49,616 nt of DNA from an uncultured Planctomycetaceae bacterium (GCA_964616985.1 CAZTVF010000027.1:1-49616); one strand, 5' to 3'; counted from the stretch's first letter, positions 22,297 to 47,554 are shown. Made by a program: numbers and translations. The notes: generated by a model from the sequence alone, not told the origin.

Positions 22297-22326
22297 GTGC
22301 CCTCGTGCTCCGTCACACCTATGGAT

Positions 22327-26652: not shown

Positions 26653-26694
26653 GGCGATAGTGTACCGTCGGGGGCGAGATCGCCAAAGCGCTAT

Positions 26695-27989: not shown

Positions 27990-29252
27990 CTACTTCTGTT
28001 CCTGCGACAGCGACGAGTGGTAGTCGCTCACCAGGTCGCGGTTGCGCTCCGACATGACCTTCTTCATGATCTGCTGCAGGCGGTCGCGTTCGCGAGGCGG
28101 CAGCGACGACCAGTCGGAGGTCTCGTCGGTGGGGTGAATCGTGCCGAGGTTGCGCGGGCGTTCCACCGAGCCGGGAACCACGGCGCTCTTCTGTGCGGGC
28201 GATGACGGGTTGTTGCCGTTCGGCGGCCCGCCCTGGCCCTGCGCCTGGCCCTGCTTCTGTTCCTTGCCGCCTTCCTCGCCCTTCTCGCCCTTCTTCTTGT
28301 CCTTGTCCTGGCTTTGACTCTGGCTCTGGTTGTTCTTTTCCTTCTCTTCCAGCGTGCGGATGAGGTCTTCGAGCACCGCGACGATTTCCTTTTCCTTCTC
28401 CTGCGTCGCCGGGCCGCTGTCCTTCTCGTTGAGCTTCTGCTCCACCTCGCCCATCCGCCCGCCGATGTGGGCCAGCGGATCCTTGTAGATCTTCTGCCAG
28501 CCCTCGACCTTGGCCGTGAGCTTCTGGAAGTCCGCCGTGCTGAACACCAGCCCGTAGTTGCGGGCGCAGTACGTCAGCATCTCCGACGCATAAATGAAGC
28601 GGCCGAGCTTCTCGTACATCTCAGCCGACTCCAGCGCCGACGCCACCGCGAAGCTGATCCGCTCGGGCATGCTCGCCAGCAATTCCTGGTACGCCGCCAG
28701 TGCCTGGTAGGCAGTGTCGCGGCTTTCCTTGCCCTTGTTCTCCTTCGCCTGGTCCTGCGACAGGCCCGCCAGCGCCTTGGCGTAGAGATAGTGCTTGGCC
28801 GTGTTGAGGTAGCTCGACTGCGTGTGATCGAGGCTCTTCAACGCCTCGGTCAATTCGAGGTGCTTGCCCTCGGCCAGCAGCTTGTGATACTTGCCGAACT
28901 GCGTGTCGACCTTGGCCATGGCCTTGCAGATGCGGTCGATGTTGTCCTGGCGGGTGTTGGCGGGCTTGTCGTGCATCGCCTTGATCGCCGCTTCCTTGGC
29001 GTCTTCCTCCAGCAGGAGGCTGTCGCGGATCTCGTCCGACGCCTTGACGCGCTCATCGGCCAGGCGAGATTCCTCCGCCCGCTGCAGGAGCTTCTCGAGT
29101 TCCTCGGGGCTGATGTCCTTCCACAACTCCGCGGCCGTGGCGTTGGCATCGGCCGAGGGCAGCGTGGTGGCTTCCAACCAGGTCTGCGCACGGGCGGCGG
29201 CGGTAAGGCCAAGGCCCGCGACGATTGCGATGATCAGCAGCTTAGTTTTCAT
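27990..29252 (-). CDS. Secreted K/E/Q-rich low-complexity protein (420 aa), member of the MoxR-vWA supra-operon
   Basis: A signal peptide MKTKLLIIAIVAGLGLTAAARA is present. The C-terminal third is poly-charged (KEKNNQSQSQSQDKDKKKGEKGEEGGKEQKQGQAQGQGG). ATG is preceded by GAGGTG. It overlaps the upstream gene end by 11 nt. Confidence 0.5.
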   Translation of the reverse strand: MKTKLLIIAIVAGLGLTAAARAQTWLEATTLPSADANATAAELWKDISPEELEKLLQRAEESRLADERVKASDEIRDSLLLEEDAKEAAIKAMHDKPANTRQDNIDRICKAMAKVDTQFGKYHKLLAEGKHLELTEALKSLDHTQSSYLNTAKHYLYAKALAGLSQDQAKENKGKESRDTAYQALAAYQELLASMPERISFAVASALESAEMYEKLGRFIYASEMLTYCARNYGLVFSTADFQKLTAKVEGWQKIYKDPLAHIGGRMGEVEQKLNEKDSGPATQEKEKEIVAVLEDLIRTLEEKEKNNQSQSQSQDKDKKKGEKGEEGGKEQKQGQAQGQGGPPNGNNPSSPAQKSAVVPGSVERPRNLGTIHPTDETSDWSSLPPRERDRLQQIMKKVMSERNRDLVSDYHSSLSQEQK

Positions 29253-31602: not shown

Positions 31603-31651
31603 ACGGTCATCCTTTCCCCGCGGCCCCGCCGAAGCGCGCCGCATTATGCAC

Positions 31652-33934: not shown

Positions 33935-36544
33935 TCAGGCCATGTTGTGTTTCTTGCGGAGCATCCACTCAGCCGCCAGCAGCACCACGATCATCACCAG
34001 GGCGAGGTTGGTGTCCCAGATGAAGCGAGGCTCGTCGTGGATGCTCACGCCGCGGTCCACGGGAATCTCGCCCAGGCGGCCCAACTGGCCCAGGGTGAGG
34101 AAGTTCTCGGCCGGGTACGCCATCGCCTTCATGGCTGAGGCGTCGGCCTCGGTGCGGACGAACTCGGCCTGCGGGAGATCGATCTCGATCTGCTTGACGA
34201 TGGTGGATTCGTTGGCGTCGCCGTCGCCGGGGGCCGGCAGCAGCTTGAACGAGCCCTTGCGATCGACGGTGAAGTTGGCCTTGAAATGCCCGGGCTTCTC
34301 ATCGCCGACGGCGTTGGCGACGATCTTGCGGTCGAGGAGGTTCGTCGAGGCGTCGATCATCTGCACCTCGTACGACTTTTCCTTGCGCGGCTGGAACTTC
34401 TCGTCATAGGCCTCCACCTCAACGGTGATGGGCTCGCCGACGGAGAAGTTGTTGCCGCCGGTGGTGATGATCACTCGCCGGGCCTGCAGCGTCGCCAGGT
34501 ACCGCACGACGTTGGCCCAGAATCGCCGGTGGTACTGCCCGTCCTTGACGTAGCGCCACCGCCACGTGTCGTCGAAGCCGACGTACAGGACGTTGCCCTT
34601 GCCATAAGGCTGGGCGGCCACCAGGGGCAGGGGCTCGTTCTTGCCGCTCATGCGCCGCAGCGGGTTGGAGCTGACGGCCAGCGTGCGGGCGCCGGGCTTG
34701 CTCTTGTAGACCGGGTGGGCCCAGAACAGCCCGGGGAGGTTCGTCCAGACGTTCTGCGATTCCTCGGCCGTGCCGGCCATGCGCATCACCGGATGGTCCA
34801 TGCCGTACGAGGTCAACCGCAGCGGGTACGCCTCGGGCCGGCCCTCGGACAGGCGGGTGATCTCGTTGATCGCGTTGGGGGCCAGGCTCACCGGCAGCAT
34901 CTCGGCGAAGTCGGCGAATTCCTTCGCGCCTTCGCTGGTCAGCAGCGTGGTCTCGGCGTACTTGTTGCCGGCGATGAGGCACAGGCCACCGTTGTGCTCC
35001 TGCACGAAGGGCTTGAGCAGGTCCTTCACGAAGTGCTGATCGAAGCCCCCGCCCGCCGACGGCGAGGGATCGTACAGGATGATCACGTTGTAGCCGGGCT
35101 TGTTCTCATCGCCCGGCACGCCGATCAGTTCTTCGAGCGACTGCGGCAGCTGGGCCAGCTTCATCCCGTTGGAGGACGCCTGGTTGATGTCCTTGTCGGC
35201 GTTCTGCTGCCAGATGCTCGTGCGGTACAGGTCGGGCTGCTGCAGCAGGAAGTTGCGGAGGTACTGGAATTCCCACCCCGCGTCGCCGCTGACCAGCAGC
35301 ACGCGGATCTTCTCGTCGGCCACCGTCACCTGGGCCAACGAGGAATTGTCGGCGGTGTTCTGCTCGCCCACCAGGGGCTCGATGAGGGCGCGGTATTCGA
35401 AGTCGCCCAGTTCGTCGGGCTCCAGCTGCATCGACACGGCCTGCAGACCCTGGGCCGACTGGTTGGGGTCGCCGGTGGCCTCCAGCGTGGCGGCCTGCGA
35501 AACCACCCGCCCGTCGGCGCTGATGGCTTCCTTCCAGTCGGACTCGCCGATGGCCCGCTTCTGCAGCTTCACCGTCACCGACTCCCCGGCCATGTTGCGG
35601 TGGGCGACCATGGCGGTGAATTCCACGTTGGCGCCGCGGCGGGTTTCGCGCGGGGCCTGCAGGGCGGTCACGGCCACGTTGCGGGGCGGCGTGGACACGC
35701 CCACCGCCACCGAGTACAGCCGCACGCCGCGCTCGGCGACGTAAGCCATCGCGCTGGCGCGGCGGGTCTCGGCGCCCAGCGTGGTGATCTGGCCGTCGCT
35801 CAGGTGAATGATGACGGGGGCCCGCTGGCCTTCCATCAGTTCCATCGCGCTGCGCAGGGCCGAGGGCGGATTTGTCGAATAGCCCGACCGCGTCAGGCCG
35901 CCCAGGGCCTGGCGCACGCGGGCCGACGCCTCGTTGGGGTCGAACACGCCGCCCTCGGGCCGCACCATGTCGATCCGCGCCATCTCGCGGGTGTAGCCCT
36001 GCTGCGACTGGGTGGGCTGGGTCGTCGAATATCGCATGACCACCAGCGGATGGTCGGCGGCGAGTTTCACCAGCGGCCCGTCCTTGGCGGCTAGGGCCTG
36101 CACGATCATCTCGCCGCGGCTGAGGTCGGCCAGCTTCTCGGCCGGCACGTTCAGCATCCTCGCCAGTTCGTCACGCTGGGCGGCGAGGTTCGGCTCGTCA
36201 TACTTGTCTTTGAAGGACATGCTCTGGCTGTCGTCGATCAGCAGCACGACGCTGCTGCTGAGCGTCTTGACGAACCGCAGCACCACCGCCGGCTGGAAGA
36301 TGATGCCGAACACCAGCGCGATAATCAGAATTCGGAGGGTCGCCAGCGTGGCCTTGGCCCGGACGGGCGCCTCGCCCTCGCGCCGGTAGCTGCGGATCGT
36401 CAGCCACACCATGCCCGCCAGCAGCACCACCAGGGCGAAGTTGACGTACTCGTTGTACTCGGCCACGGCACGCAAGCGCCAGTCGCCGTGGGAGAAGATG
36501 TCTTCCACGTCCGAATTCAGCAGCCATTTCCACAAAGCTATCAT
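33935..36544 (-). CDS. Membrane-anchored von Willebrand factor A (vWA/MIDAS) protein, BatB-like, 869 aa
   Basis: An N-terminal TM precedes the MIDAS motif VVLLIDDSQSMSF. ATG at 36544 lies immediately after the TAA of the upstream gene (TAAATG). Confidence 0.7.
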   Translation of the reverse strand: MIALWKWLLNSDVEDIFSHGDWRLRAVAEYNEYVNFALVVLLAGMVWLTIRSYRREGEAPVRAKATLATLRILIIALVFGIIFQPAVVLRFVKTLSSSVVLLIDDSQSMSFKDKYDEPNLAAQRDELARMLNVPAEKLADLSRGEMIVQALAAKDGPLVKLAADHPLVVMRYSTTQPTQSQQGYTREMARIDMVRPEGGVFDPNEASARVRQALGGLTRSGYSTNPPSALRSAMELMEGQRAPVIIHLSDGQITTLGAETRRASAMAYVAERGVRLYSVAVGVSTPPRNVAVTALQAPRETRRGANVEFTAMVAHRNMAGESVTVKLQKRAIGESDWKEAISADGRVVSQAATLEATGDPNQSAQGLQAVSMQLEPDELGDFEYRALIEPLVGEQNTADNSSLAQVTVADEKIRVLLVSGDAGWEFQYLRNFLLQQPDLYRTSIWQQNADKDINQASSNGMKLAQLPQSLEELIGVPGDENKPGYNVIILYDPSPSAGGGFDQHFVKDLLKPFVQEHNGGLCLIAGNKYAETTLLTSEGAKEFADFAEMLPVSLAPNAINEITRLSEGRPEAYPLRLTSYGMDHPVMRMAGTAEESQNVWTNLPGLFWAHPVYKSKPGARTLAVSSNPLRRMSGKNEPLPLVAAQPYGKGNVLYVGFDDTWRWRYVKDGQYHRRFWANVVRYLATLQARRVIITTGGNNFSVGEPITVEVEAYDEKFQPRKEKSYEVQMIDASTNLLDRKIVANAVGDEKPGHFKANFTVDRKGSFKLLPAPGDGDANESTIVKQIEIDLPQAEFVRTEADASAMKAMAYPAENFLTLGQLGRLGEIPVDRGVSIHDEPRFIWDTNLALVMIVVLLAAEWMLRKKHNMA

Positions 36545-38869
36545 TTATTGCACCCGCCGGGAGCGGCTGGGCCCCCGCAAGTCTGTGTAGTGACCGAATC
36601 GCTGACCGAGGAAAATCTCCGCCGCCAGCAGTGCCAACACCGCACCAATGAAGTACATCCAATAGTCTTTGCGCGGGGCCGTGCGCGATTCCTCCGACGC
36701 CCCCGCCGTCGCCAGCATAGACCGATACTCGTAGTCCTCCGTGCCGAACGCCGCCGTGATGCCCGCCTGCGCGCCCGGCGCCAGGTCGCCCTCGGCCGGA
36801 TCGAGATTCCGGGCGAACAGCACCTGCGACTCATCCCCGCGCGGCTGGTGCAGCCGCAGCGTATAGACGCCCGCCGACCGCGGCCGCTCGTACCGCAGGG
36901 CGCGGCCCTCGGCCGCCCGCTCCAAGGGCACTTCCTCTTCCTTGGGGAACTTGGGCGTGATCATCGACGTGGTGGCGTCGGCCCATTCCTTCGCCGGCGT
37001 GTAGACGATGGGCTGATCGACCAGGGCGGTTCGCGGGCGGTCGCCGCGGCAGAGCTGCGTCACCAGGCCCATCATCGTGGTGGCGTACGTGCCGACGGGG
37101 TCGCTGGGCCAGTCGCACCAGCGGGCGCTGCCGGAGGAATAGAACATGACTACCTCGCCCTTGCCGAACGAACGCGTCGCGATGGCGGGCGAGTTGCCTG
37201 CGTCGGCAAAGCGGGCGGCCACGTGCGGCGGCCCCGCGTCGCCCGCGGCCAGGGCGGTCGTCTCGGCCGCGGCGGTGAACACCCAGAACCGCACCAGGCC
37301 GGTGAATGCGCCGCCCTCGCCCTGGAACTTCTCCAGGAAGCGGTCGGGGCCGATCGACTTGGGGTTCAGGCGGAAATACTCGCCCGAGGGATCGGCCTTG
37401 CCTTGCGGCGAGCCGATTCGGAACGGCATCAGGCCCGAGCCGGCCGACCACATGTGGTCGTTGTAGAACCGCAGGTCCATGTGGCTGCCGCTGAAGATGG
37501 CCAGGCCGCCGCCGCTGCGGACGAACCGCTCCAACGCCGCCAGCTGCGGGTACGCCGTGTGACGCTCATTCGCGTCGGCCGGACGCGTCGTCACCGCCGT
37601 GTCCTGCGGGAAGGCCGCCACGTTCATCAGCACCACCACGTCGTAGTCTTCGAAGTTGACCGACGCCAGCGCGTCCTCGGAAATCACGTCGGGCCGGCAG
37701 CCGTACGAGCCGCTGCGGCGAGGGTCCAGCGCGCGGGTGAAGAAGAACGATTCGCTCTCGGTCGGGTCGGCGGCGTCCAACTGCCCGTCGACCACCAGCA
37801 CCCGCATGTGCTCGCGGACTTCGAAGGCCGCGAATGCCGTGTTGTCGGCCGGAAGCTCATCCTCGCTCAGCGTGGCCGTGATCACCGCGGGCCCGGCGAA
37901 CGTGCAAGTGATTCGGCATTCGACGGTCTCGGCCTTGCCCGGATCAATCTCCTTGATCGTCAGCATCGGCAGCGAAACCTCTCGCTGGCCTTCCTTGGTG
38001 TTCATGCGGGCGGCCATGCGGATCTCGACGTCGGAGGCGAGGGTCGTGCCGTTGTTGCGGACGGTGATTTCCACCCGTATCGGGTCCTTCGCCAGCACCA
38101 TGCGGTCCAGCAGCTTGATCTCCTGCAGCGTGAGGTTGTTCTTCGGCGCTCGGCCGTAGTCCAGTGCGGTCAGCTCGACGCCGTCCTTCTTCAGGGCGGC
38201 GATCTGCTGGCGGATGGCGGCCATCTGGTCGGCCGAGGAAAGATCCACGCGGCGGAAGTCGCTGGCGATCACCAGCCGCTTGGGGCCCTGCACGTCCTGG
38301 AACTTCTGGGCGGCGGCGGCCAGGCTGTCGGCGAGGTTCATCCGCCCGCTGGCGGGCTCAAGGGTCCTGAGCTGCCCGGCGAGGGAGTTGGAGTCGGAGG
38401 CGAAATCGCGGCGGGCGTAGGCCCAACCCTCGCCGTCGAGGCGGCTGGAAAGCAGCACGGACATCTGCTGCGTCCCCGGGATGCGTGCGGCCTGCTGGGC
38501 CAGGTCGCCGGCGGCCGTGCTCAAGGCCGAGGAGGTGCCCACCTTTTGCCCCATCGAGGCGCTGTCGTCGAGGACGAAGACGGAGGTCATCGTCCCGCTG
38601 CCGGAGGTGGGCCCGACCGCCTGACCGGAGCAGCCGACGAAGCGTCCCAGGGCCATGCCCAGCAGGAGGATCACCATGCAGCGGATGGCCAGGAGGATCA
38701 GTTCCTCCAGGCGTAGTCGCCGGCGGTTCTTCCGCAGGGAGTCCAGGAGGAACTTCATCGCGGCCCAGTCGCGCACCTTGAACCGCCTGCGGTTGAGCAG
38801 GTGGATCAAGATCGGCACACTCACCGCCGCCAGTCCTGTCCAGAATATGATCGGATGTAAAAAGGGCAT
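36545..38869 (-). CDS. BatA-like protein: 'aerotolerance regulator N-terminal' double-TM domain plus vWA/MIDAS domain, about 774 aa
   Basis: MPFLHPIIFWTGLAAVSVPILIHLLNRRRFKVRDWAAMKFLLDSLRKNRRRLRLEELILL is the BatA_N signature. The MIDAS motif is SVFVLDDSASMGQ. ATG at 38869 is preceded by GAGGA. Confidence 0.7.
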   Translation of the reverse strand: MPFLHPIIFWTGLAAVSVPILIHLLNRRRFKVRDWAAMKFLLDSLRKNRRRLRLEELILLAIRCMVILLLGMALGRFVGCSGQAVGPTSGSGTMTSVFVLDDSASMGQKVGTSSALSTAAGDLAQQAARIPGTQQMSVLLSSRLDGEGWAYARRDFASDSNSLAGQLRTLEPASGRMNLADSLAAAAQKFQDVQGPKRLVIASDFRRVDLSSADQMAAIRQQIAALKKDGVELTALDYGRAPKNNLTLQEIKLLDRMVLAKDPIRVEITVRNNGTTLASDVEIRMAARMNTKEGQREVSLPMLTIKEIDPGKAETVECRITCTFAGPAVITATLSEDELPADNTAFAAFEVREHMRVLVVDGQLDAADPTESESFFFTRALDPRRSGSYGCRPDVISEDALASVNFEDYDVVVLMNVAAFPQDTAVTTRPADANERHTAYPQLAALERFVRSGGGLAIFSGSHMDLRFYNDHMWSAGSGLMPFRIGSPQGKADPSGEYFRLNPKSIGPDRFLEKFQGEGGAFTGLVRFWVFTAAAETTALAAGDAGPPHVAARFADAGNSPAIATRSFGKGEVVMFYSSGSARWCDWPSDPVGTYATTMMGLVTQLCRGDRPRTALVDQPIVYTPAKEWADATTSMITPKFPKEEEVPLERAAEGRALRYERPRSAGVYTLRLHQPRGDESQVLFARNLDPAEGDLAPGAQAGITAAFGTEDYEYRSMLATAGASEESRTAPRKDYWMYFIGAVLALLAAEIFLGQRFGHYTDLRGPSRSRRVQ

Positions 38870-38934
38870 TACGTCCTCATTCGGCGTTCTCGCGGCCACG
38901 GAGAGCACGGAGAAACGCGGAGAAAAACATGAGA

Positions 38935-39194
38935 CTAAAGAATCACTCGCTGCAGCCCGTCCACAAGTTTGTCCATGTTGAAATTCATCACCAGCGCCAC
39001 CTTTGCGCCAGCGGTTTTCAGGGTGCTGATCACCTGCACCAAGTCTCTAGGCCTCAGTGAATCGCCAAGGCCCTGTGCACTTTGATCGCAGCCCCGATGA
39101 TCCTCTGAGTCAGTTCCCAGTGCGGGTGGCTGTTCTCACGGCAATCCGCCGCCAGAACCTCCGCTCCCGCCTGCTGTAGATAACTCTTCGACAT
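38935..39194 (-). pseudogene. Decayed GxxExxY-family (TIGR04256-like) gene: N-terminal and C-terminal thirds retained, central core deleted and frameshifted
   Basis: One frame reads MSKSYLQQ...HWELTQRIIGAAIKVHRALAIH*. The +1 frame continues ...LRPRDLVQVISTLKTAGAKVALVMNFNMDKLVDGLQRVIL*. These match the conserved IIGAAIEVHR.LG start and the ...ILTYLK..G.RLGLLINFN..LKDGIKR end of GxxExxY proteins. About 60 central residues, including the eponymous motif, are missing. Confidence 0.6.
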
Positions 39195-39360
39195 CGTCCT
39201 GCTTTCCGTCTTCGCTTCTTCTCTCTGAGTTCTCTGAGCCTCTGTGGTCAGCTTCTTCTTCTTCTTCTTCTTTTGCTTATTCTTCTGCAGCTGTTGCTTT
39301 TGCTTCTTCTCTCCGCTTTCTCCGTGCTCTCCGTGGCCTTCCCGTGCTTTTGTGGTCAGC
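39195..39360. repeat. Low-complexity polypyrimidine/polypurine island containing a (CTT)7/(GAA)7 microsatellite and TGTGGTCAGC direct repeats; AT-richer than surroundings
   Basis: It contains cttcttcttcttcttcttttgcttattcttctgcagctgttgcttttgcttcttctc. tgtggtcagc occurs at 39244-39253 and 39351-39360. It lies between the DUF58 stop and the GxxExxY remnant. Confidence 0.6.
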
Positions 39361-40287
39361 CTATTTCCGTGCGCTGGCCTTGCGGAGGGCGGCGGCGCGG
39401 GCGGCGAGGAAGGAGAGCAACGCGGCGTCGAGGTGGTCGGCGGTGGAGACCAGCTTGTAGTCGATCCTGCCGGCGATGCAGCGGCGATTGACGTCGCGGC
39501 AGAAGTCATCCACGGCCTTGAGGTAGCCTTCGCGAAGAGCGCGGGGCTCGATGATGACCCGCCCCGCCTGTTCCAGGCCGCGGAACATCGTGTTGCCCTG
39601 GAACGGGAACGTCAGTTCGTCCTCGTCCATGATGTGCAGCACCATCACCTCGTGGTCGTAGTGGCGGAAGTGCTGCAGGCCCTTGATCAGGCCCTCGATG
39701 TCCGTGAACAGGTCGCTGATCAGGCACACCAGGCCGCGGCGGCTGATCTTCTCGGCCAGGGAATGGCAGATCGGCTCCAGCGAGGTCTTGGCCCGGGGCG
39801 TCTGAAGGTCCAGGGCGTGCACCATCGTCTTGATCTGGTTGGGATTCGCCGAGGCCGGCAGGTACGCCTTCAGTTCCTCGTCGAAGACGGCCAGGCCGAC
39901 GGCGTCCTGCTGCCTCAGCAGCAGCATGGACAGCGAGGCCGCCACCGCGCAGGCGTAGTGGTACTTGGTCATGGCGTCGCGGCCGTCGCGGCGATAGAGC
40001 ATGGACTCGCTCGCGTCGACGATGAACGTCGCCTTGAGGTTGGTCTCCTGCTCGTACTGCTTGATGTAGTAACGGTCGGTCTTGGCCTGCACCTTCCAGT
40101 CGAGGTGCTTGAGATCGTCACCGGGCACGTACTCGCGGTGCGTGGCGAATTCGATCGAGAACCCGTGGAAGGGGCTGCGGTGCAGGCCGGAGATGAAGCC
40201 TTCGACCACCTGCCTGGCCAGGAGGTCCAGGCGGGTGATCTTCGACAGCACCCGCGGGTCGAGATACTTCTGTAATTCGTTACTCAT
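39361..40287 (-). CDS. DUF58-domain protein (degenerate vWA-fold, MoxR partner), 308 aa
   Basis: YVPGDDLKHLDWKVQAKTDRYYIKQYEQETNLKATFIVDASESMLY is the DUF58 hallmark. ATG at 40287 is used, with an in-frame TAA 15 nt upstream. Confidence 0.8.
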   Translation of the reverse strand: MSNELQKYLDPRVLSKITRLDLLARQVVEGFISGLHRSPFHGFSIEFATHREYVPGDDLKHLDWKVQAKTDRYYIKQYEQETNLKATFIVDASESMLYRRDGRDAMTKYHYACAVAASLSMLLLRQQDAVGLAVFDEELKAYLPASANPNQIKTMVHALDLQTPRAKTSLEPICHSLAEKISRRGLVCLISDLFTDIEGLIKGLQHFRHYDHEVMVLHIMDEDELTFPFQGNTMFRGLEQAGRVIIEPRALREGYLKAVDDFCRDVNRRCIAGRIDYKLVSTADHLDAALLSFLAARAAALRKASARK

Positions 40288-40463: not shown

Positions 40464-41519
<1,056 letters not shown>

Positions 41520-41533
41520 TCAATTCTCCTTCG

Positions 41534-42676
41534 TCATCTCTGGTAAATGGGGAGGTATCCGTAGGGAAGCTGCAGAATCACCGTCGCCATGGCGGTGCCG
41601 TACGTGGTGCCCACGCTATCGCCGTCCCAACTGCCGTCGGCGGCCTGCATGCTCAACAACTTGTTGCGAATCTTGGGGTAGTACTCGGCCCAGTCCTTCC
41701 CGCCGTGCTGGTACATGCCCTGGGCCATGTAGTACTGCGTGTAGAACCAGTGGCCGTCGTTGGTGTCGGGGAAGGCCGACTTCTTCACGTAGGCCAGGAG
41801 CTTGTCGACCATCTCGGCCTCGACGCCCTTGCCGCCGGCCTGGCGGTCGTAGATGCCCGCGGCGTAGAAGCAGGCGATGGCGGCGGCCGAAATCGCCGGG
41901 CGGCTGGAGCCCTTGGAGGCGAACGAGTAGCAGATGCCGCCGTCGGCCATCTGGCAGGCCTTGAGGTACAGCACCGCCCGCTCGATGGTGCTCTTGGGGA
42001 CGCTGATGCCCGCGTTGCGGCACGCGCGAAGGGCCTGCAGCTGCGTCACGGTCACGCTGCCCTCGTCGCTCTTGCCGTCGGGGGTGTAGATCCACCCGCC
42101 CGCGTGCTTGAGGTTGGGCCCCAGGTCCGACTGTGCCTTGGCCGTGAGGGCGACGGCCTTGTCCAGGGCCTTCTTGATGCGCTTCTCGTTCTCGGTGTTC
42201 ATCTCGATGCCGTAGCACTGGGCCAGGAACAGCATGGCGAAGCCGTGCCCGTACATGCTGCGGCTCTCGGCGCCGGGGCCGGCGATCATGCCGTCGTCCT
42301 GCGCCTCGGCCACGTTGAGGATGTAGTTCATGGCCCGCGTGACTTCCTTGGCGTACGTGCCGCTTTCGGGGGTCGAGCCGTTGGCCATCAGCGACAGGCC
42401 CGCCAGGGACGTCATCACGCTGGGGTACACGCCATAGCCGCCGCCGTTGAGCCACGCCCCGTTGTTGCGCTGCGTCTGGGCGAGGTAGCCGATACCGCGG
42501 TCGATGGCCTTGACCGTCTTCTCGTCCATCATGTCCGGCAGGACGGGCCCCGGGGCCGCCGCCTGCACCGGCGGCGTGCGGACCAGCATCGTGCCCACGG
42601 TGACGGACAGGGCCACAAAGCCCACCATCAACGCCGGGCCGATGAGTCTTCGGTTGTCTCGGTTACGGTGCGCCAT
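41534..42676 (-). CDS. Secreted prenyltransferase/squalene-oxidase-repeat (terpene-cyclase-like alpha/alpha-toroid) protein, 380 aa
   Basis: A signal/anchor LIGPALMVGFVALSVTVGTMLV is present. Three QW-type motifs appear (QRNNGAW, QMADGGICY, QAADGSWDG). Its ATG overlaps the giant gene stop by 14 nt. Confidence 0.7.
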   Translation of the reverse strand: MAHRNRDNRRLIGPALMVGFVALSVTVGTMLVRTPPVQAAAPGPVLPDMMDEKTVKAIDRGIGYLAQTQRNNGAWLNGGGYGVYPSVMTSLAGLSLMANGSTPESGTYAKEVTRAMNYILNVAEAQDDGMIAGPGAESRSMYGHGFAMLFLAQCYGIEMNTENEKRIKKALDKAVALTAKAQSDLGPNLKHAGGWIYTPDGKSDEGSVTVTQLQALRACRNAGISVPKSTIERAVLYLKACQMADGGICYSFASKGSSRPAISAAAIACFYAAGIYDRQAGGKGVEAEMVDKLLAYVKKSAFPDTNDGHWFYTQYYMAQGMYQHGGKDWAEYYPKIRNKLLSMQAADGSWDGDSVGTTYGTAMATVILQLPYGYLPIYQR

Positions 42677-45600
42677 AGATCACCACGCCTTCATTGGTTT
42701 CGATGGCCAGCCGGCCGTTCGTCATCACCGGCGGACCCAGGGGTATCGCGGTCATTCCGTTCATCATCATGAATTGGCGGTTTCCCATCCGCCCCATCCT
42801 CAGGGCGTTGGCCGCTGCCACGTTGTCCGCGCCGCCCTTGCGGGCGACGGCGATCTTCGAGGCGATCTTGCCGGTCTGCACGTCCAGCACGTACACCATG
42901 TCTTCGCCGGTGCCCGTGGTGACGGCGACGGCCACGTGCGTCTGGCCGGCCACCGGCGGCGTCACGAGCAGGTTGGCGTTGTTGCCCACCACCTCGCTCA
43001 CCCAGGCGTACTTCTTGCGTTCGAGGTCCACCTTGGCCACCCAGAGCCCCATGAAAGGCCGCACCGTGCCCCACTGCCGCGGATCGGCAAACTGCGAACT
43101 GCAGGCGATGTAGGCCGAGCTGCCGTCGAAGACGGCGTAGATCGGCGTGATCTCGCCGCCTGAACCGGCCGTGGGCGCCGGCAGCGAGACCAGCGGTTCT
43201 TTGCCGGCCGTCACCGAGCAGATGTCGACCCGGCGGGAGTTGAAGGTGAAGGCGGCGTAGTCGGGGCTGACGCCCAGGATGGTGGGCGCGCTGTTGGCGT
43301 TGTCGTACGTCCGGCTCCACAGGGGCTTGGAGACCTGCCCCGGGTCCAGCGCCGTGACCTTGTTGTCGCTGCACACGATGGCCACGCCCGTGGGCGTGAA
43401 GCAGCCGACGGAACTGGCCTGGCCCTGGAAGGTCTGAATGATGCGGCCCTTCTGGGCCACGTCCAGCAGCGTCACCTGCCGCATCGAGGAGTGGCGGATC
43501 ATGACCAGCCCCCCGCCCACCTGCGGGGGCGTCATCATGGGGTTGCCCACCGCCAGTTGAACCTGGTTCCAGAGCACCTCGCCGGTGGCCATGTCGATGC
43601 AGATGATCCGCCCCACGCCGTCGGCCAGGGCCAGCAGGCCGTCGCCGGTGCCCATGAGGCAGTTGCCCTGCGCGCCGACGGCAGGCTCGGCCAGCGTGCG
43701 GGCCCACTTGGCCTTGGCCGTCCGCAGGTCGTAGCCGCGGATGCCCTCGTTGCTGGCGATCGTCAGCACCTTCTGATCTTTGCTCAGGGCGGCGATGGCG
43801 CCGGTGCCCAGGCCCGAGAAACCGCCCTGCCGCAGCGCGTCCGAAGTGATCGGCGACAACCCCTGCCAGCTGACGGCCGAGGCGGCGTCGCGGGCCTGCG
43901 TGTCGGCCATGATCGCGTGGTTGTTGCTCAGGACCAGGATGCGGTCGCCCAGCCGCAGGGGCTGGTAGTTCTGATCGCGGAGGATGCAGGTATTGTCCTT
44001 GGTCATCTCGAAGATCTTGGTCAAGGGCATTCGCAGCATCGCCGGCAGGCGGGCCTGGCGGACGGGGCCCTCGTGGGGGCCCTGCAGCTTGGTGAGGACG
44101 GTCTCCAGCGACCCCTGCAGATCGCCGAAGGCGACCTGGATGTCGGCCTCGGAGGCGGCCATGCCGGCGGCCTCGCGGGCGGCGTCGCAGTGATAGTTCA
44201 TCGTGCCGCGCTGGTTGTTGCGGCCGTAGACGGCCGCCAGGCCCACGTGAGCGTTAACGCGAAGGGCCCGCTCGACGGTCTCGGCCGTCAGGGGGGACAG
44301 CAGCGGCACGATTTGGGACAACGACCGGTCGGCCTGCTCGGGGGCCTCTTCCAGCGAGCGGCGGTAGAGCAGTTCGCCGGCGAGCAGGCGGGCGTTGTCG
44401 GACCACAGGCTGTTGGGCCAGCGGCGCGAGATGTCGGCCATCGCGTTGGCGTCGTTGGCGGCGCGGGCGCCATCCAGGGCCTCCTTGGCCTGCGCGTCGT
44501 AGGCGGCGTAGATCTGCTGGCCGTGCGTCTGCAGCAGGTCGCGAATGAGATTCTCGCCCAGGCGCGAGCCGACGATGTACTCCACCGACGGCCCCATCAG
44601 GGCGTTCTCCTGGCCGGGGCCGATCTCGACGTCGGCCAGCTCGGTCGAGCCGAACTGCTCGCGAAGCTCCTGTGCCAGCTGCACCGCCAGCGTCGCCTCG
44701 GTGATCTTGGCCTGGCGGAGCTTGGCCGCCTCGGCCGCGTCGGCGACCTTGTCCCTGTCGATGGCGGCCGCAATCTGGTCGGCCCGCAGGCGGTGGAACT
44801 TGGCCAGGCGCACCTTCATGTGCCCCTTCTCCTGGGGCGTCGCCGCGACGCTGTCGGCCAGGAGGTAGTTCTGCTCCATCGCGTTGGGGTCGGTGCCATG
44901 GTCGGCCAGCGCGACATACGTGCGGTAGAGCATGGTCTCGATGCGGGCGATCTTGACGTTGCCGTCGGGGGCGGCGATTTCCTTGGCGGCCAGCAGGTCG
45001 GCCAGGCACTCGCTGAAGTTGCGGCTGCTGAAGGCGAGCTGGGCCCGCGAGAGCAGCAGGTCGGGCTTGTTCTTGGCCGGGGCGGCCTCGAGGCGTTCAC
45101 TCAGGCGGCTGCGGGCGTCGGCATAGTTGAGGTAGCCGCACAGGCCGCCGGCGTTGGCGGCGATCAGCTGCCCGCGGACGCTGAGCAGGTTGCCCAGCAT
45201 GCCGGCGGCCCCGTCGCCGGCCACCAGCGGCAGAGGCTTGCTGGGATAGTTCGGGTCGGTGAGGTCCACGCGGATCAGCCGGCCCGAACCGCTGGCCAGG
45301 ATCGCCGAAGGCGTGACGGCCGGCCGCCCCACCACGGTTTCAGACGAGCCCACGGGCTTGCGGCCCATGTCGGTCAGCGAGACGATCTCCATCGAGGGGC
45401 CGCTGAGCAGCACGCGCGACGTATCGATGGCCGTCAGATCCCTCTTGCCCGAACGCTCCATCTGCTTGAGCAGCGTGCCGTCGTCGGCGGACAGGACCAG
45501 CAGAGTCTGGCTGTCGGCGGGCAGGGCGACAACCTTCGAACCGGCGACGATGATGGGATTGCCGGGGTAGCCCGGTCCCGGGTTGGGGTTGTAGCCCATG

Positions 45601-47396
45601 TTGGGGTTGTTCAACATGCCATGGGGGCTGTCGTACTGGTAGGCCCAGGCGGGCTGGCCGGTGTCGGCCTCGAAGGCGGCGACCACGCCGGCATTGGTTG
45701 CGACATAAACGCGGCCGTCGGCCACGGCCGGAGGGCTGCCCCGGTGGGGCGCCGGGTCGTAACCGTAATTCGGCGTCGGGGGCGGCGTCTGGCAGACCAT
45801 CGCCTGCCACTGCAGCGAGCCGTTGGCGGCGTCGAGGCACAAGAGCTGATAGTTGCCCGCGTAGGCCACGACGGTGTACAGGCGGCCCGCGTCGTAGGTC
45901 GGGGCACACATGTAGCGGCAGCCGCGGACGATCTCGTCCTTGCCCACGCCCTGTCCCAGGCGCCACACCTGCTTGAGCTGGCCCTTGAGCGACAACGCCA
46001 CCAGGTCCGAGGTGTCGCCCGCGTCGTTCCCGTCGCGGCGGCCGCCGTAGTTCTGCGTCGAGGCGCGGTAATTCGCCAGGGCGAATACCTTGCCCTCGGC
46101 CAGCGTCAACGTATAGCGGCCGGTGTCTACAGGCGCTTGCATGTTGCCGTAGTAGCCGCCGTAGCGCTCGGAGCTCTTGTTCTCCCGCTCCAGCGGAAGG
46201 TTCACGGTGATCCACCGCTGCTCGCCGGTGACCAGGTCGCAGGCGACGACCGCGTCGTCGCGACGATAGATCACCACGTCGCCGTAGACGACCGGCTGCA
46301 CCAGCGGCGCCATCGTGAAGCCCGACTGCGAACTGCCGTTGCCGCTGAAGCCCACCGAGACGTGGCCGTTCTTGAGGTTGATCGCGACGCGCTGGTTGGG
46401 GTTATTGCTCGCCTTGAAGGTCTGCCCCATCGCCACCAGCGAGAGCTTGCCCACCTCGACGGGCGGGTTCTGCCAACGCGGCGAGAGCACCACGTTGCTC
46501 TCGCCCATCAGGCCCTGGCCCATCTTCTGGGCGCCCAGGCCGCCCCACTCGTCGGCCGACGCCACCGGCGGCGCCGTCACCGGCGGCATCTTCGCCACCT
46601 CGGCGAGGAAGTCGCTGATCTTCTGCAAACGCCCGGCGATCTTCGCCTCGGCGGCGGCGTGCTTTTCCGACAACTCCTTGGCCACCTCGGCCGCCTTGGC
46701 GGCCTGGCCGCTGAGATGATAGGCGGCGTAGAGCTTGGCCAGCAGCACCGGCCGCTCCAGGCTGCTGTTGCGACGGTCCAGCGCCAGGCGCCAGAAGCGC
46801 GACGCCTGTTCCACCTTGCCCGCGTCGAACAGGATACTGCCGATGATGTTCAGCGTCTTGCCGCCGTAACTGCTGTTGGCGTACCGCATGGCGACTTGCC
46901 GCAGGAGCCCCAGGTCGGAATTGGCCACGCCCTGGTTGTACAACTGCTCCGCCTGCGGATCGTACATCTGGCGGTACAGGGCCAGGCCGTCCTCGGGCAT
47001 CGAGCCGATGATCTCGTTGGCCTTGGCCACGAAAGAGACGTACCGCTTGCCGTCGTCGGCGATCAGCTTGCCCTCGGACTTCTCGGCCAGGGCCTGGAGG
47101 TACTCGATCGCCTTGAGGTATTCCTTCTGCTGGATGAAGTCCTGCGCCTTCTTGACCAGCGCCGCCCGCTCTTCATCGACGTTCACCAGGGGGATGGGCT
47201 TGCTGGTATCGGGCTTCTTGGGCGTGCTGACGCGGACCTGCCCGAGGCACAAGCCCCCTGCCGTCAATAGAACGGCGGCAACGATGGACGCAATGCGAAT
47301 TCTGCCGGTAGTCAATAGCCTACCCCCGCCCAAGGCTGCGGCCTTGGAGCTTGGTGTGAGGACAGGGTCGTTTATCTTCGCCTTCTTTACTGCCAA
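42663..47396 (-). CDS. Giant (1577 aa) membrane-anchored multi-beta-propeller protein with PQQ/BamB-like repeats and a central TPR-like alpha-solenoid; first gene of the supra-operon
   Basis: An N-terminal TM IASIVAAVLLTAGGLCLG is present. Recurrent propeller motifs appear (DLVTGEQRW, AANGSLQWQA, ADTGQPAWAY, MATGEVLWNQ). The putative TTG start at 47396 is preceded by GGAAGG. The antisense 1259-aa ORF is compositional junk. Confidence 0.7.
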   Translation of the reverse strand: MAVKKAKINDPVLTPSSKAAALGGGRLLTTGRIRIASIVAAVLLTAGGLCLGQVRVSTPKKPDTSKPIPLVNVDEERAALVKKAQDFIQQKEYLKAIEYLQALAEKSEGKLIADDGKRYVSFVAKANEIIGSMPEDGLALYRQMYDPQAEQLYNQGVANSDLGLLRQVAMRYANSSYGGKTLNIIGSILFDAGKVEQASRFWRLALDRRNSSLERPVLLAKLYAAYHLSGQAAKAAEVAKELSEKHAAAEAKIAGRLQKISDFLAEVAKMPPVTAPPVASADEWGGLGAQKMGQGLMGESNVVLSPRWQNPPVEVGKLSLVAMGQTFKASNNPNQRVAINLKNGHVSVGFSGNGSSQSGFTMAPLVQPVVYGDVVIYRRDDAVVACDLVTGEQRWITVNLPLERENKSSERYGGYYGNMQAPVDTGRYTLTLAEGKVFALANYRASTQNYGGRRDGNDAGDTSDLVALSLKGQLKQVWRLGQGVGKDEIVRGCRYMCAPTYDAGRLYTVVAYAGNYQLLCLDAANGSLQWQAMVCQTPPPTPNYGYDPAPHRGSPPAVADGRVYVATNAGVVAAFEADTGQPAWAYQYDSPHGMLNNPNMGYNPNPGPGYPGNPIIVAGSKVVALPADSQTLLVLSADDGTLLKQMERSGKRDLTAIDTSRVLLSGPSMEIVSLTDMGRKPVGSSETVVGRPAVTPSAILASGSGRLIRVDLTDPNYPSKPLPLVAGDGAAGMLGNLLSVRGQLIAANAGGLCGYLNYADARSRLSERLEAAPAKNKPDLLLSRAQLAFSSRNFSECLADLLAAKEIAAPDGNVKIARIETMLYRTYVALADHGTDPNAMEQNYLLADSVAATPQEKGHMKVRLAKFHRLRADQIAAAIDRDKVADAAEAAKLRQAKITEATLAVQLAQELREQFGSTELADVEIGPGQENALMGPSVEYIVGSRLGENLIRDLLQTHGQQIYAAYDAQAKEALDGARAANDANAMADISRRWPNSLWSDNARLLAGELLYRRSLEEAPEQADRSLSQIVPLLSPLTAETVERALRVNAHVGLAAVYGRNNQRGTMNYHCDAAREAAGMAASEADIQVAFGDLQGSLETVLTKLQGPHEGPVRQARLPAMLRMPLTKIFEMTKDNTCILRDQNYQPLRLGDRILVLSNNHAIMADTQARDAASAVSWQGLSPITSDALRQGGFSGLGTGAIAALSKDQKVLTIASNEGIRGYDLRTAKAKWARTLAEPAVGAQGNCLMGTGDGLLALADGVGRIICIDMATGEVLWNQVQLAVGNPMMTPPQVGGGLVMIRHSSMRQVTLLDVAQKGRIIQTFQGQASSVGCFTPTGVAIVCSDNKVTALDPGQVSKPLWSRTYDNANSAPTILGVSPDYAAFTFNSRRVDICSVTAGKEPLVSLPAPTAGSGGEITPIYAVFDGSSAYIACSSQFADPRQWGTVRPFMGLWVAKVDLERKKYAWVSEVVGNNANLLVTPPVAGQTHVAVAVTTGTGEDMVYVLDVQTGKIASKIAVARKGGADNVAAANALRMGRMGNRQFMMMNGMTAIPLGPPVMTNGRLAIETNEGVVIYGAP

Positions 47397-47534
47397 GGGG
47401 ACCTTCCACGAACAACGGTGCGATTATAAGCGAACGCATCGACGGTACACAACCGGCAGCGCTGTTAGTCGCCGCTGCACGCCGCCGGTTCCGGGCTGGT
47501 TGAGAAATATTTCGAGCCCCAGCCCGATTGCGGA

Positions 47535-47554
47535 CCTGCCTGCCGGCAGGCAGG
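47535..47554. promoter_or_regulatory. Perfect 20-bp palindrome CCTGCCTGCCGGCAGGCAGG about 140 nt upstream of the supra-operon start; candidate operator
   Basis: The same CCTGCC(N)GGCAGG core recurs at 7768-7779 and, degenerate, at 384-398. Confidence 0.35.

What the first reader, a model, noticed from the sequence alone, without database searches (positions are those of the whole stretch)
41534..47396. Operon is led by a 1577-aa multi-propeller giant and a secreted QW-motif alpha/alpha-toroid protein directly coupled to MoxR
The giant protein starts with a TM anchor and contains several PQQ/BamB-type blade motifs (…TGE..W…) separated by a TPR-like helical region. Its stop overlaps the start of a 380-aa secreted protein carrying three terpene-cyclase QW motifs (QxxNGAW, QxxDGSW). 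The MoxR GTG start begins 15 nt after that gene's TGA, with the AAGGAG RBS immediately following the stop. The toroid fold is the same as in alpha2-macroglobulin thioester domains and squalene cyclases. Pairing it with MoxR is unusual.
Basis: partly seen in the sequence, partly recalled or inferred. Interest (0 to 1): 0.55.

Follow-up and report, generated by a model that had tools for sequence, protein, structure and literature searches.

The report
Conserved planctomycete envelope operon with toroid
The two genes are real and begin a nine-gene operon found in hundreds of Planctomycetota species, in which a secreted two-propeller scaffold protein and a secreted, apparently non-enzymatic relative of terpene cyclases accompany a MoxR ATPase and membrane-anchored VWA proteins whose function nobody has established.

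Summary
On the minus strand a 1577-aa protein (47396..42663) overlaps by 14 nt a 380-aa secreted protein (42676..41534). MoxR follows after a 14-nt spacer containing AAGGAG.

The structure models show two BamB-like 8-bladed propellers plus two helical/TPR regions in the giant. The 380-aa protein is a single (alpha/alpha)6 toroid. The toroid has no DxDD, DCTAE, DDxxD or CGEQ motif, and no isoprenoid genes lie nearby, so it is not a cyclase or a thioester protein.

The adjacency is not chance. The toroid family occurs in at least 588 species genomes (Planctomycetota, some Verrucomicrobiia). In 80 loci a TPR-propeller gene lies directly upstream in 61 of 68 evaluable cases. MoxR follows in 45 of 66. 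In 18 of 66 the membrane-anchored BatA-type VWA gene follows directly, with no MoxR nearby. The toroid's constant partner is therefore the whole Bat-like module (MoxR, DUF58, two double-anchored VWA proteins, a 742-aa membrane protein, DUF4175), not MoxR itself.

Close relatives of the toroid form the extracytoplasmic domain of Ser/Thr kinases and of a sigma-factor fusion. This points to ligand binding. I read the pair as the periplasmic binding and scaffold subunits of a PVC-specific Bat-type machine. The function is inferred, not shown.

The parts
42663..47396 (-). Giant protein, 1577 aa (TTG start as in the longest ORF; the true start may be further downstream). Layout: signal peptide, TPR-like region, 8-bladed propeller, helical solenoid, 8-bladed propeller.
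   Evidence: ORF. Pfam PQQ_2 4.6e-28. Homologues at 33-62% identity. AF2 model of residues 378-1577, pLDDT 76. Best Foldseek matches are BamB, E 9e-12.
47238..47396 (-). N-terminal export signal of the giant (residues 1-53, hydrophobic core 33-51).
   Evidence: Hydropathy scan. The homologues carry ordinary Sec-type signal peptides.
46557..47189 (-). N-terminal TPR-like helical region of the giant (about residues 70-280).
   Evidence: NCBIfam YbgF TPR match at residues 164-251. TPR families are found at the equivalent place in distant homologues. This region was not modelled.
45135..46499 (-). Propeller 1 of the giant (about residues 300-754). 28 strands lie in the modelled part 384-754; the first blade or so lies outside the model.
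   Evidence: Pfam PQQ_2 at 476-663. AF2 secondary structure. Strand count.
44082..45125 (-). Central helical (TPR-like) solenoid of the giant, residues 758-1105.
   Evidence: AF2: 15 long helices, pLDDT mostly 80-93. TPR_16 and TPR_21 hits in the same region of a distant homologue, L054.
42666..43991 (-). Propeller 2 of the giant (residues 1136-1577), 34 strands, about 8 blades.
   Evidence: NCBIfam BamB TIGR03300 match at 1206-1314. AF2. Foldseek matches to BamB and to designed 8-bladed propellers.
41534..42676 (-). Secreted (alpha/alpha)6 toroid protein, 380 aa. Signal peptide residues 1-39 (42560..42676); the mature protein starts at AAPGPVLP.
42041..42067 (-). Invariant block D204-E-G-S-V-T-V-T-Q212 at the N-cap of inner helix 208-221 of the toroid.
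   Evidence: At least 97% conserved in 93 sequences at 47-72% identity. Retained as DE(G/S)xxT(I/V)xQ in the kinase-fused relatives.
41520..41533 (-). 14-nt toroid-MoxR spacer with the ribosome-binding site AAGGAG (41526..41531).
   Evidence: Read directly from the sequence.
40464..41519 (-). MoxR AAA+ ATPase, 351 aa, GTG start, Walker A GVPGLAKT, no TM segment.
   Evidence: Pfam AAA_3 1.7e-63 and AAA_lid_2. P-loop. No TM segment.
39361..40287 (-). DUF58 protein, 308 aa. VWA-like with the MIDAS motif DASES; cytoplasmic.
   Evidence: Pfam DUF58 2.4e-44. DxSxS at residue 91. No TM segment.
36545..38908 (-). BatA-type protein. N-terminal double-TM anchor, VWA domain (MIDAS DDSAS), large periplasmic region, C-terminal TM. 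The likely true start is Met14 (38869).
   Evidence: Pfam BatA 1.7e-14 and VWA_2; NCBIfam TIGR02226 8e-18. TM segments. MIDAS motif.
33935..36544 (-). 869-aa protein with the same layout (two N-terminal TMs, DxSxS DDSQS, C-terminal TM): a BatB-like second VWA protein.
   Evidence: Weak VWA_2 hit. TM segments. MIDAS motif. Conserved in position in the related loci.
31652..33880 (-). 742-aa membrane protein (three N-terminal TM segments), no family match.
   Evidence: Conserved in position in the related loci.
29242..31644 (-). 800-aa DUF4175 protein with a signal peptide.
   Evidence: Pfam DUF4175 3.9e-10. Signal peptide. Conserved at the operon end in the related loci.
27990..29252 (-). 420-aa secreted protein whose start overlaps the DUF4175 stop by 11 nt. 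Possibly the last gene of the operon; membership is uncertain.
   Evidence: ORF coordinates. Signal peptide. No homologue was found in the fetched loci.

Best explanation
The region holds the first two genes of a roughly 19-kb, nine-gene envelope operon that is a Planctomycetota-specific elaboration of the MoxR-DUF58-BatA/BatB ('Bat-like') type.

Shown:
- Both proteins are exported.
- The giant is a non-enzymatic scaffold: TPR region, BamB-like 8-bladed propeller, helical solenoid, second 8-bladed propeller.
- The 380-aa protein is a single terpene-cyclase-like (alpha/alpha)6 toroid that lacks every known catalytic or thioester motif.
- Its family is strongly conserved and syntenic with the Bat-like module across the phylum.
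- The same domain is used elsewhere as the outside-facing domain of Ser/Thr kinases and of a sigma-factor fusion.

Inferred:
- The toroid is a ligand-binding (sensor or receptor) subunit.
- Together with the propeller-TPR scaffold it docks in the periplasm on the MIDAS-bearing VWA domains of the two double-anchored BatA/BatB-like proteins.
- The cytoplasmic MoxR hexamer and its DUF58 (VWA) adaptor assemble or remodel this membrane complex from the inside, through the short arginine-rich cytoplasmic loops and tails of the anchored proteins.

The tight toroid-MoxR spacing (14 nt, strong RBS) and the 14-nt giant-toroid overlap provide co-translation and balanced amounts of the products. They do not indicate a private toroid-MoxR partnership.
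For: Gene order. The order giant, toroid, MoxR, DUF58, BatA-VWA, about 860 aa, about 740 aa, DUF4175 is identical in unrelated metagenome contigs. It recurs across 80 species-level loci: TPR-propeller upstream in 61 of 68 cases, and MoxR next in 45 of 66 or BatA-VWA next in 18 of 66.

Distribution. The family is present in at least 588 species genomes and in 1005 50%-identity clusters at E <= 1e-30.

Toroid. The model is confident (pLDDT 85). The fold matches are terpene cyclases, GH76 and TED domains. No DxDD, DCTAE, DDxxD or CGEQ motif is present. All members have Sec signal peptides, and a twin-arginine motif occurs in only 12 of 120.

Sensor-type fusions. The architecture Pkinase-TM-toroid is seen in P0225, P0238 and P0237 (Gemmataceae), and Sigma70_r2/r4-TM-toroid in P0256.

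Giant. Two beta regions of 28 and 34 strands separated by a helical solenoid, with best matches to BamB. Scores are far below the PQQ-dehydrogenase and BamB family cut-offs.

Topology and MIDAS. MoxR and DUF58 have no TM segment. BatA-VWA and the 869-aa protein each have two N-terminal TMs and one C-terminal TM, and all three VWA-type proteins carry DxSxS. The homologous layout of Borrelia BB0173 was shown experimentally to put the VWA domain in the periplasm (PMC5700661).
Against: No interaction, ligand or phenotype is known for any component. Even the classical Bat operons lack a demonstrated function: deleting all bat ORFs in Leptospira gave no detectable change in growth, morphology or oxidative-stress tolerance (PMC3557215).

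The near-invariance of polar residues at the predicted cavity mouth (H144, D204, E205, several Tyr) fits an enzyme as well as a binding site.

I could not inspect the model coordinates, so the placement of these residues is inferred from the helix order only.

Orphan copies of the toroid gene exist outside the operon (L045, L050). Verrucomicrobiia loci lack the propeller gene.
Confidence: 0.55

Rival explanations
1. The toroid is a true periplasmic enzyme, either a divergent class II terpenoid cyclase or isomerase or an (alpha/alpha)6 glycan-active enzyme. It would use the invariant D204-E205 pair and H144, and the operon would be a substrate-processing pathway.
Against: No DxDD or DCTAE motif. 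Scores are far below every cyclase family cut-off (30 vs 322.7 bits and similar). No isoprenoid or glycan-pathway genes lie inside the operon. Relatives serve as the outer domain of kinases and of a sigma-factor fusion, which is typical of sensor domains, not enzymes. Sequence identity to the GH families is only 8-12%.
Confidence: 0.2
2. The locus is a MoxR-vWA-beta-propeller 'ternary' conflict (immunity) system of the kind described by Kaur, Burroughs, Iyer and Aravind (eLife 2020), with the giant as the TM-TPR-propeller third component.
For: Pfam bpMoxR matches the MoxR above its cut-off (38.7 vs 27 bits). The paper describes systems in planctomycetes and verrucomicrobia with a third component carrying a membrane segment, TPR and a beta-propeller, plus extra alpha-helical proteins (PMC7159879). 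The giant evolves quickly (21-36% identity where the toroid keeps 52-70%).
Against: The vWA partner (DUF58, 308 aa) has no propeller. The P-loop is the ordinary GVPGLAKT, not GxxxTAKS. AAA_3 scores 212.8 bits against 38.7 for bpMoxR. No bp-system families hit the other proteins. The operon is a stable, syntenic, near-universal feature of the lineage rather than a patchy mobile island.
Confidence: 0.07
3. The MoxR-DUF58 pair matures the toroid itself, for example by cofactor or metal insertion before export, as MoxR/VWA pairs do for other enzymes. That would make the tight toroid-MoxR coupling functional.
For: The 14-nt spacer with a strong RBS. MoxR follows the toroid in 45 of 66 loci. The window protein has an RR pair in its signal peptide.
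Against: The RR is not conserved (12 of 120), and the signals look Sec-type, so the protein crosses the membrane unfolded. In 18 of 66 loci no MoxR or DUF58 lies within 10 kb of the toroid. No conserved Cys/His cluster typical of a metal site is obvious beyond H144 and C219.
Confidence: 0.08
4. Chance adjacency of unrelated genes.
For: None beyond the existence of orphan toroid copies.
Against: Conserved order in dozens of species at 47-72% toroid identity, and overlapping or near-abutting reading frames.
Confidence: 0.01

Closest known systems
Bat (Bacteroides aerotolerance) type operons: MoxR (BatI), DUF58, BatA and BatB (TM-anchored VWA proteins), BatC/BatE (TPR proteins), BatD. Known in Bacteroides, spirochaetes and Riemerella.
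   Same: MoxR of the AAA_3 type. DUF58 with a MIDAS motif. A BatA N-terminal double-TM domain followed by VWA, and a second anchored VWA-like protein. TPR-containing accessory protein(s). A periplasm-facing VWA topology like that of BB0173.
   Different: No BatD match. The TPR component is a 1577-aa double-propeller protein. The anchored VWA proteins are 790-870 aa, against about 330 aa in Borrelia BB0173. There are extra 742-aa and DUF4175 proteins. A secreted terpene-cyclase-like toroid is a constant member.
Class II terpene cyclases (squalene-hopene cyclase, and the single-domain MstE type).
   Different: No DxDD catalytic acid. Sec signal peptide, so periplasmic. 13-16% identity (21% to one squalene-hopene cyclase chain, 1gsz). 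Family scores are about ten times below the cut-offs.
Thioester domains of alpha2-macroglobulin, complement and TEP proteins.
   Different: No CGEQ thioester. Stand-alone rather than embedded in MG domains. It ranks lower than the cyclases and the GH families.
BamB (the outer-membrane protein assembly lipoprotein) and other PQQ_2 propellers.
   Same: The 8-bladed PQQ-like propeller fold. Best structural matches at E 9e-12 and a Pfam PQQ_2 hit.
   Different: Two propellers in one chain, joined by helical repeats. No lipobox. TIGR03300 scores 57 bits against a cut-off of 285.
MoxR-vWA-beta-propeller ternary systems (Kaur et al. 2020, PMC7159879).
   Same: MoxR together with vWA and a membrane-associated TPR/propeller protein, found in planctomycetes and verrucomicrobia.
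   Different: The vWA component has no propeller. The P-loop is ordinary. The content is conserved rather than diversifying.

Membership tests
Class II terpene cyclase (SHC/OSC, TIGR01787/TIGR01507) | Catalytic acid motif DxDD (or DCTAE in oxidosqualene cyclases) | tested here: not met
   The regex finds no DxDD, DCTAE or DxD[DE]T in the window protein. DxDD is present in only 2 of 120 homologues and is not conserved.
Class II terpene cyclase (SHC/OSC, TIGR01787/TIGR01507) | Score above the curated family cut-off | tested here: not met
   TIGR01787 scores 30 bits vs 322.7, TIGR01507 23.9 vs 431, and TIGR03463 27.6 vs 851. Pfam SQHop_cyclase_C scores 27.0 vs 26.1, carried by the QW repeats only.
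Class II terpene cyclase (SHC/OSC, TIGR01787/TIGR01507) | (alpha/alpha)6 toroid with QW repeats | tested here: met
Class II terpene cyclase (SHC/OSC, TIGR01787/TIGR01507) | Isoprenoid or hopanoid pathway genes nearby | tested here: not met
   The window neighbours are MoxR, DUF58, VWA, DUF4175, NPCBM, QueG, radical SAM and GH116.
Protein prenyltransferase beta subunit (PF00432) | Pfam Prenyltrans match and the Zn-binding Asp/Cys/His triad | tested here: not met
   No PF00432 hit at E <= 0.01 for the window protein. The triad itself could not be checked without a residue-level superposition.
Thioester-containing (A2M/C3/TEP) domain | CGEQ thioester motif | tested here: not met
Bat-like MoxR-DUF58-BatA/B operon | MoxR AAA_3 ATPase followed by DUF58 | tested here: met
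   AAA_3 1.7e-63 and DUF58 2.4e-44; the genes are adjacent on the same strand.
Bat-like MoxR-DUF58-BatA/B operon | BatA N-terminal double-TM domain plus a VWA domain with MIDAS, and a second anchored VWA protein | tested here: met
   PF07584 1.7e-14, TIGR02226 8e-18, VWA_2. DDSAS and DDSQS motifs. TM layout.
Bat-like MoxR-DUF58-BatA/B operon | BatD and stand-alone TPR proteins BatC/BatE | tested here: not met
   No BatD family hit on any operon protein. TPR-like regions are present only inside the giant.
MoxR-vWA-beta-propeller ternary system (PMC7159879) | [quoted passage not shown] | tested here: not met
   DUF58 is 308 aa with no propeller. No propeller family hits on the 787-aa or 869-aa VWA proteins. 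Their structures were not modelled, so a cryptic propeller is not fully excluded.
MoxR-vWA-beta-propeller ternary system (PMC7159879) | MoxR P-loop variant GxxxTAKS, which the paper says is often present | tested here: not met
   The Walker A motif is GVPGLAKT.
MoxR-vWA-beta-propeller ternary system (PMC7159879) | Third component with a membrane segment, TPR and a beta-propeller | tested here: met
   The giant has an N-terminal hydrophobic segment, TPR-like regions and two propellers.
BamB / PQQ-dependent dehydrogenases | Score above the family cut-off; lipobox (BamB) or PQQ-binding enzyme signature | tested here: not met
   TIGR03300 scores 57 vs 285, NF008351 36 vs 423, and TIGR03075 29 vs 480. 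No lipobox at the N-terminus. Only the fold is BamB-like.

The most novel reading that the evidence does not exclude
The secreted toroid is a cyclase-derived receptor that has lost catalysis but kept a pocket for a polycyclic or polyprenyl lipid (hopanoid, sterol, carrier lipid) or for an envelope glycan. In this reading, the toroid on the propeller-TPR scaffold forms the substrate-recognising head of a MoxR-powered VWA machine. That machine would monitor or maintain the unusual PVC cell envelope. The kinase- and sigma-fused paralogues would be the signalling versions of the same receptor. If true, this would give the first concrete substrate class for any Bat-type MoxR-VWA system.
Probability: 0.12. 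Interest if true: 0.75.

Novelty: new variant of a known kind. Interest (0 to 1): 0.45.

Why it matters
MoxR-DUF58-BatA operons are very widespread, yet their function has stayed unresolved since they were named for aerotolerance. The Planctomycetota version described here adds two strictly exported partners. One belongs to a strongly conserved family that also serves as a sensor domain of kinases. That gives an experimental handle: find what the toroid binds, and there is a candidate for what the whole machine acts on. It also corrects a large annotation class. Thousands of 'terpene cyclase/mutase family' or 'squalene cyclase' proteins in PVC genomes are almost certainly not cyclases, which matters for surveys that infer hopanoid or sterol synthesis from such names.

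Tried and rejected
- Kamneva et al. 2012. I recalled a 'conserved PVC genetic module' from this paper and suspected it was this operon. Reading it showed that the module is the DUF1501/PSCyt system, which is unrelated.
- The MoxR-vWA-transglutaminase operon of Zhang and Aravind 2012 is a different MoxR context.
- Four literature searches combining planctomycete or PVC terms, MoxR, DUF58, BatA, prenyltransferase and squalene-cyclase terms found nothing on this operon.
- A profile search to enlarge the giant's family added only one sequence, so the giant was modelled on 10 sequences.
- An exact look-up of the window's own giant protein found no record.
- BLASTP of the 787-aa protein against the 869-aa protein shows no significant similarity. 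Calling them paralogues rests only on shared topology, the DxSxS motif and HMM cross-hits.
- The 869-aa and 742-aa proteins have no relatives among solved structures by sequence.
- The ORF upstream of the giant is unrelated to the upstream gene of related loci.
- Tat export and cytoplasmic maturation of the toroid were considered and rejected, because the RR is not conserved.

Full report
THE SEQUENCE

The region is coding on the minus strand. The 1577-aa ORF runs 47396..42663 (TTG start) and the 380-aa ORF runs 42676..41534. The 380-aa gene's ATG lies inside the last codons of the giant gene, an overlap of 14 nt. Its TGA is followed by cg-AAGGAG-aattga-GTG, the start of a 351-aa MoxR gene.

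Downstream, on the same strand and mostly abutting, lie:
- DUF58 (40287..39361);
- a BatA-type VWA protein (38908..36545);
- an 869-aa protein (36544..33935);
- a 742-aa protein (33880..31652);
- a DUF4175 protein (31644..29242);
- a 420-aa secreted protein (29252..27990).

A 434-nt gap precedes the giant. It contains a terminator-like hairpin and a perfect 20-bp palindrome. In related contigs the next gene upstream is on the other strand. The giant is therefore most likely the first gene of the operon.

THE GIANT

Pfam finds PQQ_2 (BamB-type propeller) at 4.6e-28 in two stretches. NCBIfam finds weak BamB and PQQ matches, all far below the family cut-offs, and a TPR (YbgF) match at residues 164-251.

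An AlphaFold2 model of residues 378-1577, built on a 10-sequence alignment, has mean pLDDT 76. It shows:
- a beta region at 384-754 (28 strands, with the first blade or so outside the modelled fragment);
- a helical solenoid of 15 long helices at 758-1105;
- a second beta region at 1136-1574 (34 strands).

The best structural matches are BamB structures (E 9e-12) and designed 8-bladed propellers. The protein therefore has two 8-bladed propellers, not 'several', and two helical repeat regions.

Its N-terminal hydrophobic stretch (33-51) aligns with ordinary cleavable signal peptides in the homologues. It is probably a soluble exported protein rather than a membrane-anchored one. Nothing suggests a PQQ enzyme.

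THE TOROID

The AlphaFold2 model, built on 51 sequences, is confident (pLDDT 85, pTM 0.84). It consists of twelve helices arranged as six outer/inner pairs.

- Foldseek ranks single-domain class II terpene cyclases (MstE), AprG and squalene-hopene cyclases first, at E about 1e-7 and TM about 0.55.

The fold claim is therefore correct, but the protein has no close structural relative. Sequence similarity to cyclases is confined to the QW loops.

Neither the window protein nor the family carries a conserved DxDD, DCTAE, DDxxD or CGEQ motif: DxDD appears in 2 of 120 homologues and the others in none. All members have Sec-type signal peptides ending in A-x-A just before a conserved APGPVLP. A twin-arginine motif is present in only 12 of 120. 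The protein is therefore exported unfolded, and it is neither a canonical cyclase nor a thioester protein.

CONSERVATION OF THE TOROID FAMILY

The family is unusually conserved for an exported protein.
- The best 120 database relatives are 62-85% identical.
- The family comprises 1005 clusters (at 50% identity) at E <= 1e-30, and 13,394 at E <= 1e-3.
- Across 93 sequences from 80 species-level loci (47-72% identity, Verrucomicrobiia included), the block D204-E-G-S-V-T-V-T-Q212 is at least 97% invariant. So are H144, Q182-S183, G193-G-W195, Y237, Y312, Y316 and W329.

From the helix order in the model, these residues sit at or just before the N-termini of inner helices. In toroid enzymes that is the mouth of the central cavity. 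This placement is an inference; I could not access the coordinates. The proteins also all end in ...LQLPYGYLPI(Y/F)QR.

GENOMIC CONTEXT

Three long metagenome or MAG contigs carrying 62-70%-identical toroid genes have exactly the same order: a roughly 1500-aa PQQ_2 protein, toroid, MoxR, DUF58, BatA-VWA, about 860 aa, about 740 aa, DUF4175.

They are mainly Planctomycetota (Phycisphaerae, Planctomycetales, Brocadiaceae, Isosphaeraceae-type bins) plus a few Verrucomicrobiia.

In the 80 loci fetched I classified neighbours with iterated HMMs.
- A TPR-plus-propeller gene lies directly upstream in 61 of 68 evaluable loci. Pfam confirmed TPR and PQQ_2 in divergent examples that tblastn had missed.
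- The next downstream gene is MoxR in 45 of 66 loci and the BatA-type VWA gene in 18 of 66.
- In those 18 loci no MoxR or DUF58 is found within 10 kb.
- Those 18 loci have a shorter, one-propeller upstream protein (about 920-1100 aa). Loci with MoxR-DUF58 have the two-propeller form (about 1300-1650 aa).
- Twelve loci carry tandem duplicates of the toroid gene.
- Two have orphan copies in unrelated contexts. One of these is a second copy in a genome that also has the operon.
- The Verrucomicrobiia locus checked (L058) keeps toroid-MoxR-DUF58-BatA but has sulfatase genes in place of the propeller gene.

Relative conservation among the Phycisphaerae-type loci is MoxR 72-83%, DUF58 60-81%, toroid 52-70%, the anchored VWA proteins 35-50% and the giant 21-36%.

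The triplet is therefore not a chance adjacency. The toroid's constant companion is the membrane module, not MoxR specifically.

THE REST OF THE OPERON

- MoxR has the ordinary Walker A motif GVPGLAKT and no TM segment.
- DUF58 has a DxSxS MIDAS motif and no TM segment.
- The 787-aa and 869-aa proteins each have two N-terminal TM helices separated by an arginine-rich loop, then a DxSxS motif, then a large region, then a C-terminal TM helix.
- The 742-aa protein has three N-terminal TM helices.
- DUF4175 and the 420-aa protein have signal peptides.

The 787-aa protein matches the BatA N-terminal domain (PF07584, TIGR02226). The same two-plus-one TM layout in Borrelia BB0173 was shown experimentally to place the VWA domain in the periplasm (PMC5700661). 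The operon thus encodes a cytoplasmic AAA+/adaptor pair and a set of membrane-anchored and soluble periplasmic proteins. This is the general plan of Bat operons. Their function remains undemonstrated (PMC3557215).

WHAT THE TOROID DOMAIN DOES ELSEWHERE

Among the 150 best cluster representatives, nearly all are stand-alone proteins of 330-400 aa. Five are longer.
- Three are Ser/Thr protein kinases with one TM helix followed by the toroid domain: P0225, P0238, and P0237 from a Gemmataceae MAG. P0237 also carries an anti-sigma zinc finger.
- One is a sigma-70 region 2/region 4 protein with TM helices followed by the toroid (P0256).
- One looks like a triple toroid (P0195).

The kinase-fused domains keep the DE(G/S)xxT(I/V)xQLQxLxAARNxG block, the GHG(F/Y) motif and the C-terminal Y(Q/R)R. 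A cytoplasmic signalling domain joined through a membrane helix to an outside domain is the architecture of a sensor. The domain family is therefore used to bind something outside the cytoplasm. This is the strongest argument that the operon's toroid is a binding module rather than an enzyme.

INTERPRETATION

I conclude that the finding describes the first two genes of a Planctomycetota-wide variant of the Bat-type MoxR-VWA envelope operon. The giant is a periplasmic scaffold of two BamB-like propellers and two helical repeat regions. The toroid is a cyclase-derived, probably non-catalytic ligand-binding subunit.

The most likely mechanism is inferred, not shown. Both proteins would assemble on the MIDAS-bearing periplasmic VWA domains of the two anchored proteins. 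MoxR with DUF58 would drive assembly or remodelling from the cytoplasmic face. The gene overlaps and the short spacer serve co-expression.

Rivals:
- The toroid is a real enzyme. The invariant D-E pair and His, and the equally good fold matches to GH76, keep this alive at about 0.2.
- The locus is a MoxR-vWA-beta-propeller conflict system. The bpMoxR hit and the TM-TPR-propeller third component fit. The vWA lacks a propeller, the P-loop is ordinary and the operon is a stable lineage feature.
- MoxR matures the toroid before export. Sec-type signals and the MoxR-less loci contradict this.

NOVELTY

The components are individually annotated only generically, as 'prenyltransferase/squalene oxidase repeat-containing protein' or 'terpene cyclase/mutase family protein'. 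I found no paper describing the operon or the toroid's link to MoxR/Bat systems. It is a new variant of a known kind of system rather than a new kind. Its function is as open as that of Bat operons in general. Interest is moderate. The sensor-domain fusions and the extreme conservation give a concrete experimental handle, but nothing here is mechanistically surprising yet.

Noticed in passing
window 38935..39194 (minus strand), in the roughly 450-490 nt gap between DUF58 and the BatA-type gene: There are two short reading-frame pieces, MSKSY...ELTQRIIGAAIKVHRALAIH* and ...LVQVISTLKTAGAKVALVMNFNMDKLVDGLQRVIL*. They look like the two ends of a GxxExxY-family protein with the middle deleted. The C-terminal piece matches TIGR04256 positions 86-115 of 116 at E 0.006. 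The 151-aa ORF listed at 39054..39509 is an artefact spanning this remnant.
   Followed up: partly
window 39250..39330 (minus strand): A purine-rich low-complexity run (gaagaagcaaaagcaacag...aagaagaagaagaagaag) in a 64-70% GC genome, just downstream of the DUF58 stop codon and upstream of the GxxExxY remnant.
   Followed up: no
window 47535..47554: A perfect 20-bp palindrome, CCTGCCTGCCGGCAGGCAGG, in the 434-nt region upstream of the giant gene, next to a terminator-like hairpin at 47527..47512. It could be an operator or the terminator of the upstream gene.
   Followed up: no
loci L030, L033, L034, L038, L046, L048, L063, L064, L069, L073, L080, L085: The toroid gene is tandemly duplicated inside the operon in 12 of 80 loci, in both operon types.
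   Followed up: partly
L045:9869-11029 and L050:9616-10965: These are orphan toroid genes outside any Bat-like operon. One lies next to a glycogen-debranching-type amylase and an MscS channel, the other next to RlmL and an aldo/keto reductase. L045 comes from the same MAG as the operon copy in L035.
   Followed up: partly
loci L061-L064, L066, L068-L070, L072-L076, L078-L080, L083, L085 versus the rest: There are two operon types. A one-propeller upstream protein (about 920-1100 aa) goes with the toroid directly followed by batA and no MoxR/DUF58 within 10 kb. The two-propeller form (about 1300-1650 aa) goes with MoxR-DUF58 between the toroid and batA. The correlation was perfect in this sample.
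   Followed up: partly
proteins P0225, P0238, P0237, P0256 (not in the window): Toroid-family domains are fused C-terminally, after a TM helix, to Ser/Thr kinases and to a sigma-70 r2/r4 protein. P0237 (Gemmataceae) also carries an anti-sigma zinc finger, a 3-keto-disaccharide hydrolase-like domain and DUF1579.
   Followed up: partly
window 13653..16625, 21208..22401, 25609..26709, 26744..27925 (all minus strand): Other genes of the window are a GH116-family glycosidase, a radical SAM protein, a QueG-like epoxyqueuosine reductase and a secreted NPCBM-domain protein. None is related to isoprenoid metabolism.
   Followed up: no
L058:5190-9758: In a Verrucomicrobiia locus, three sulfatase genes occupy the place upstream of the toroid gene that the TPR-propeller gene holds in Planctomycetota.
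   Followed up: no
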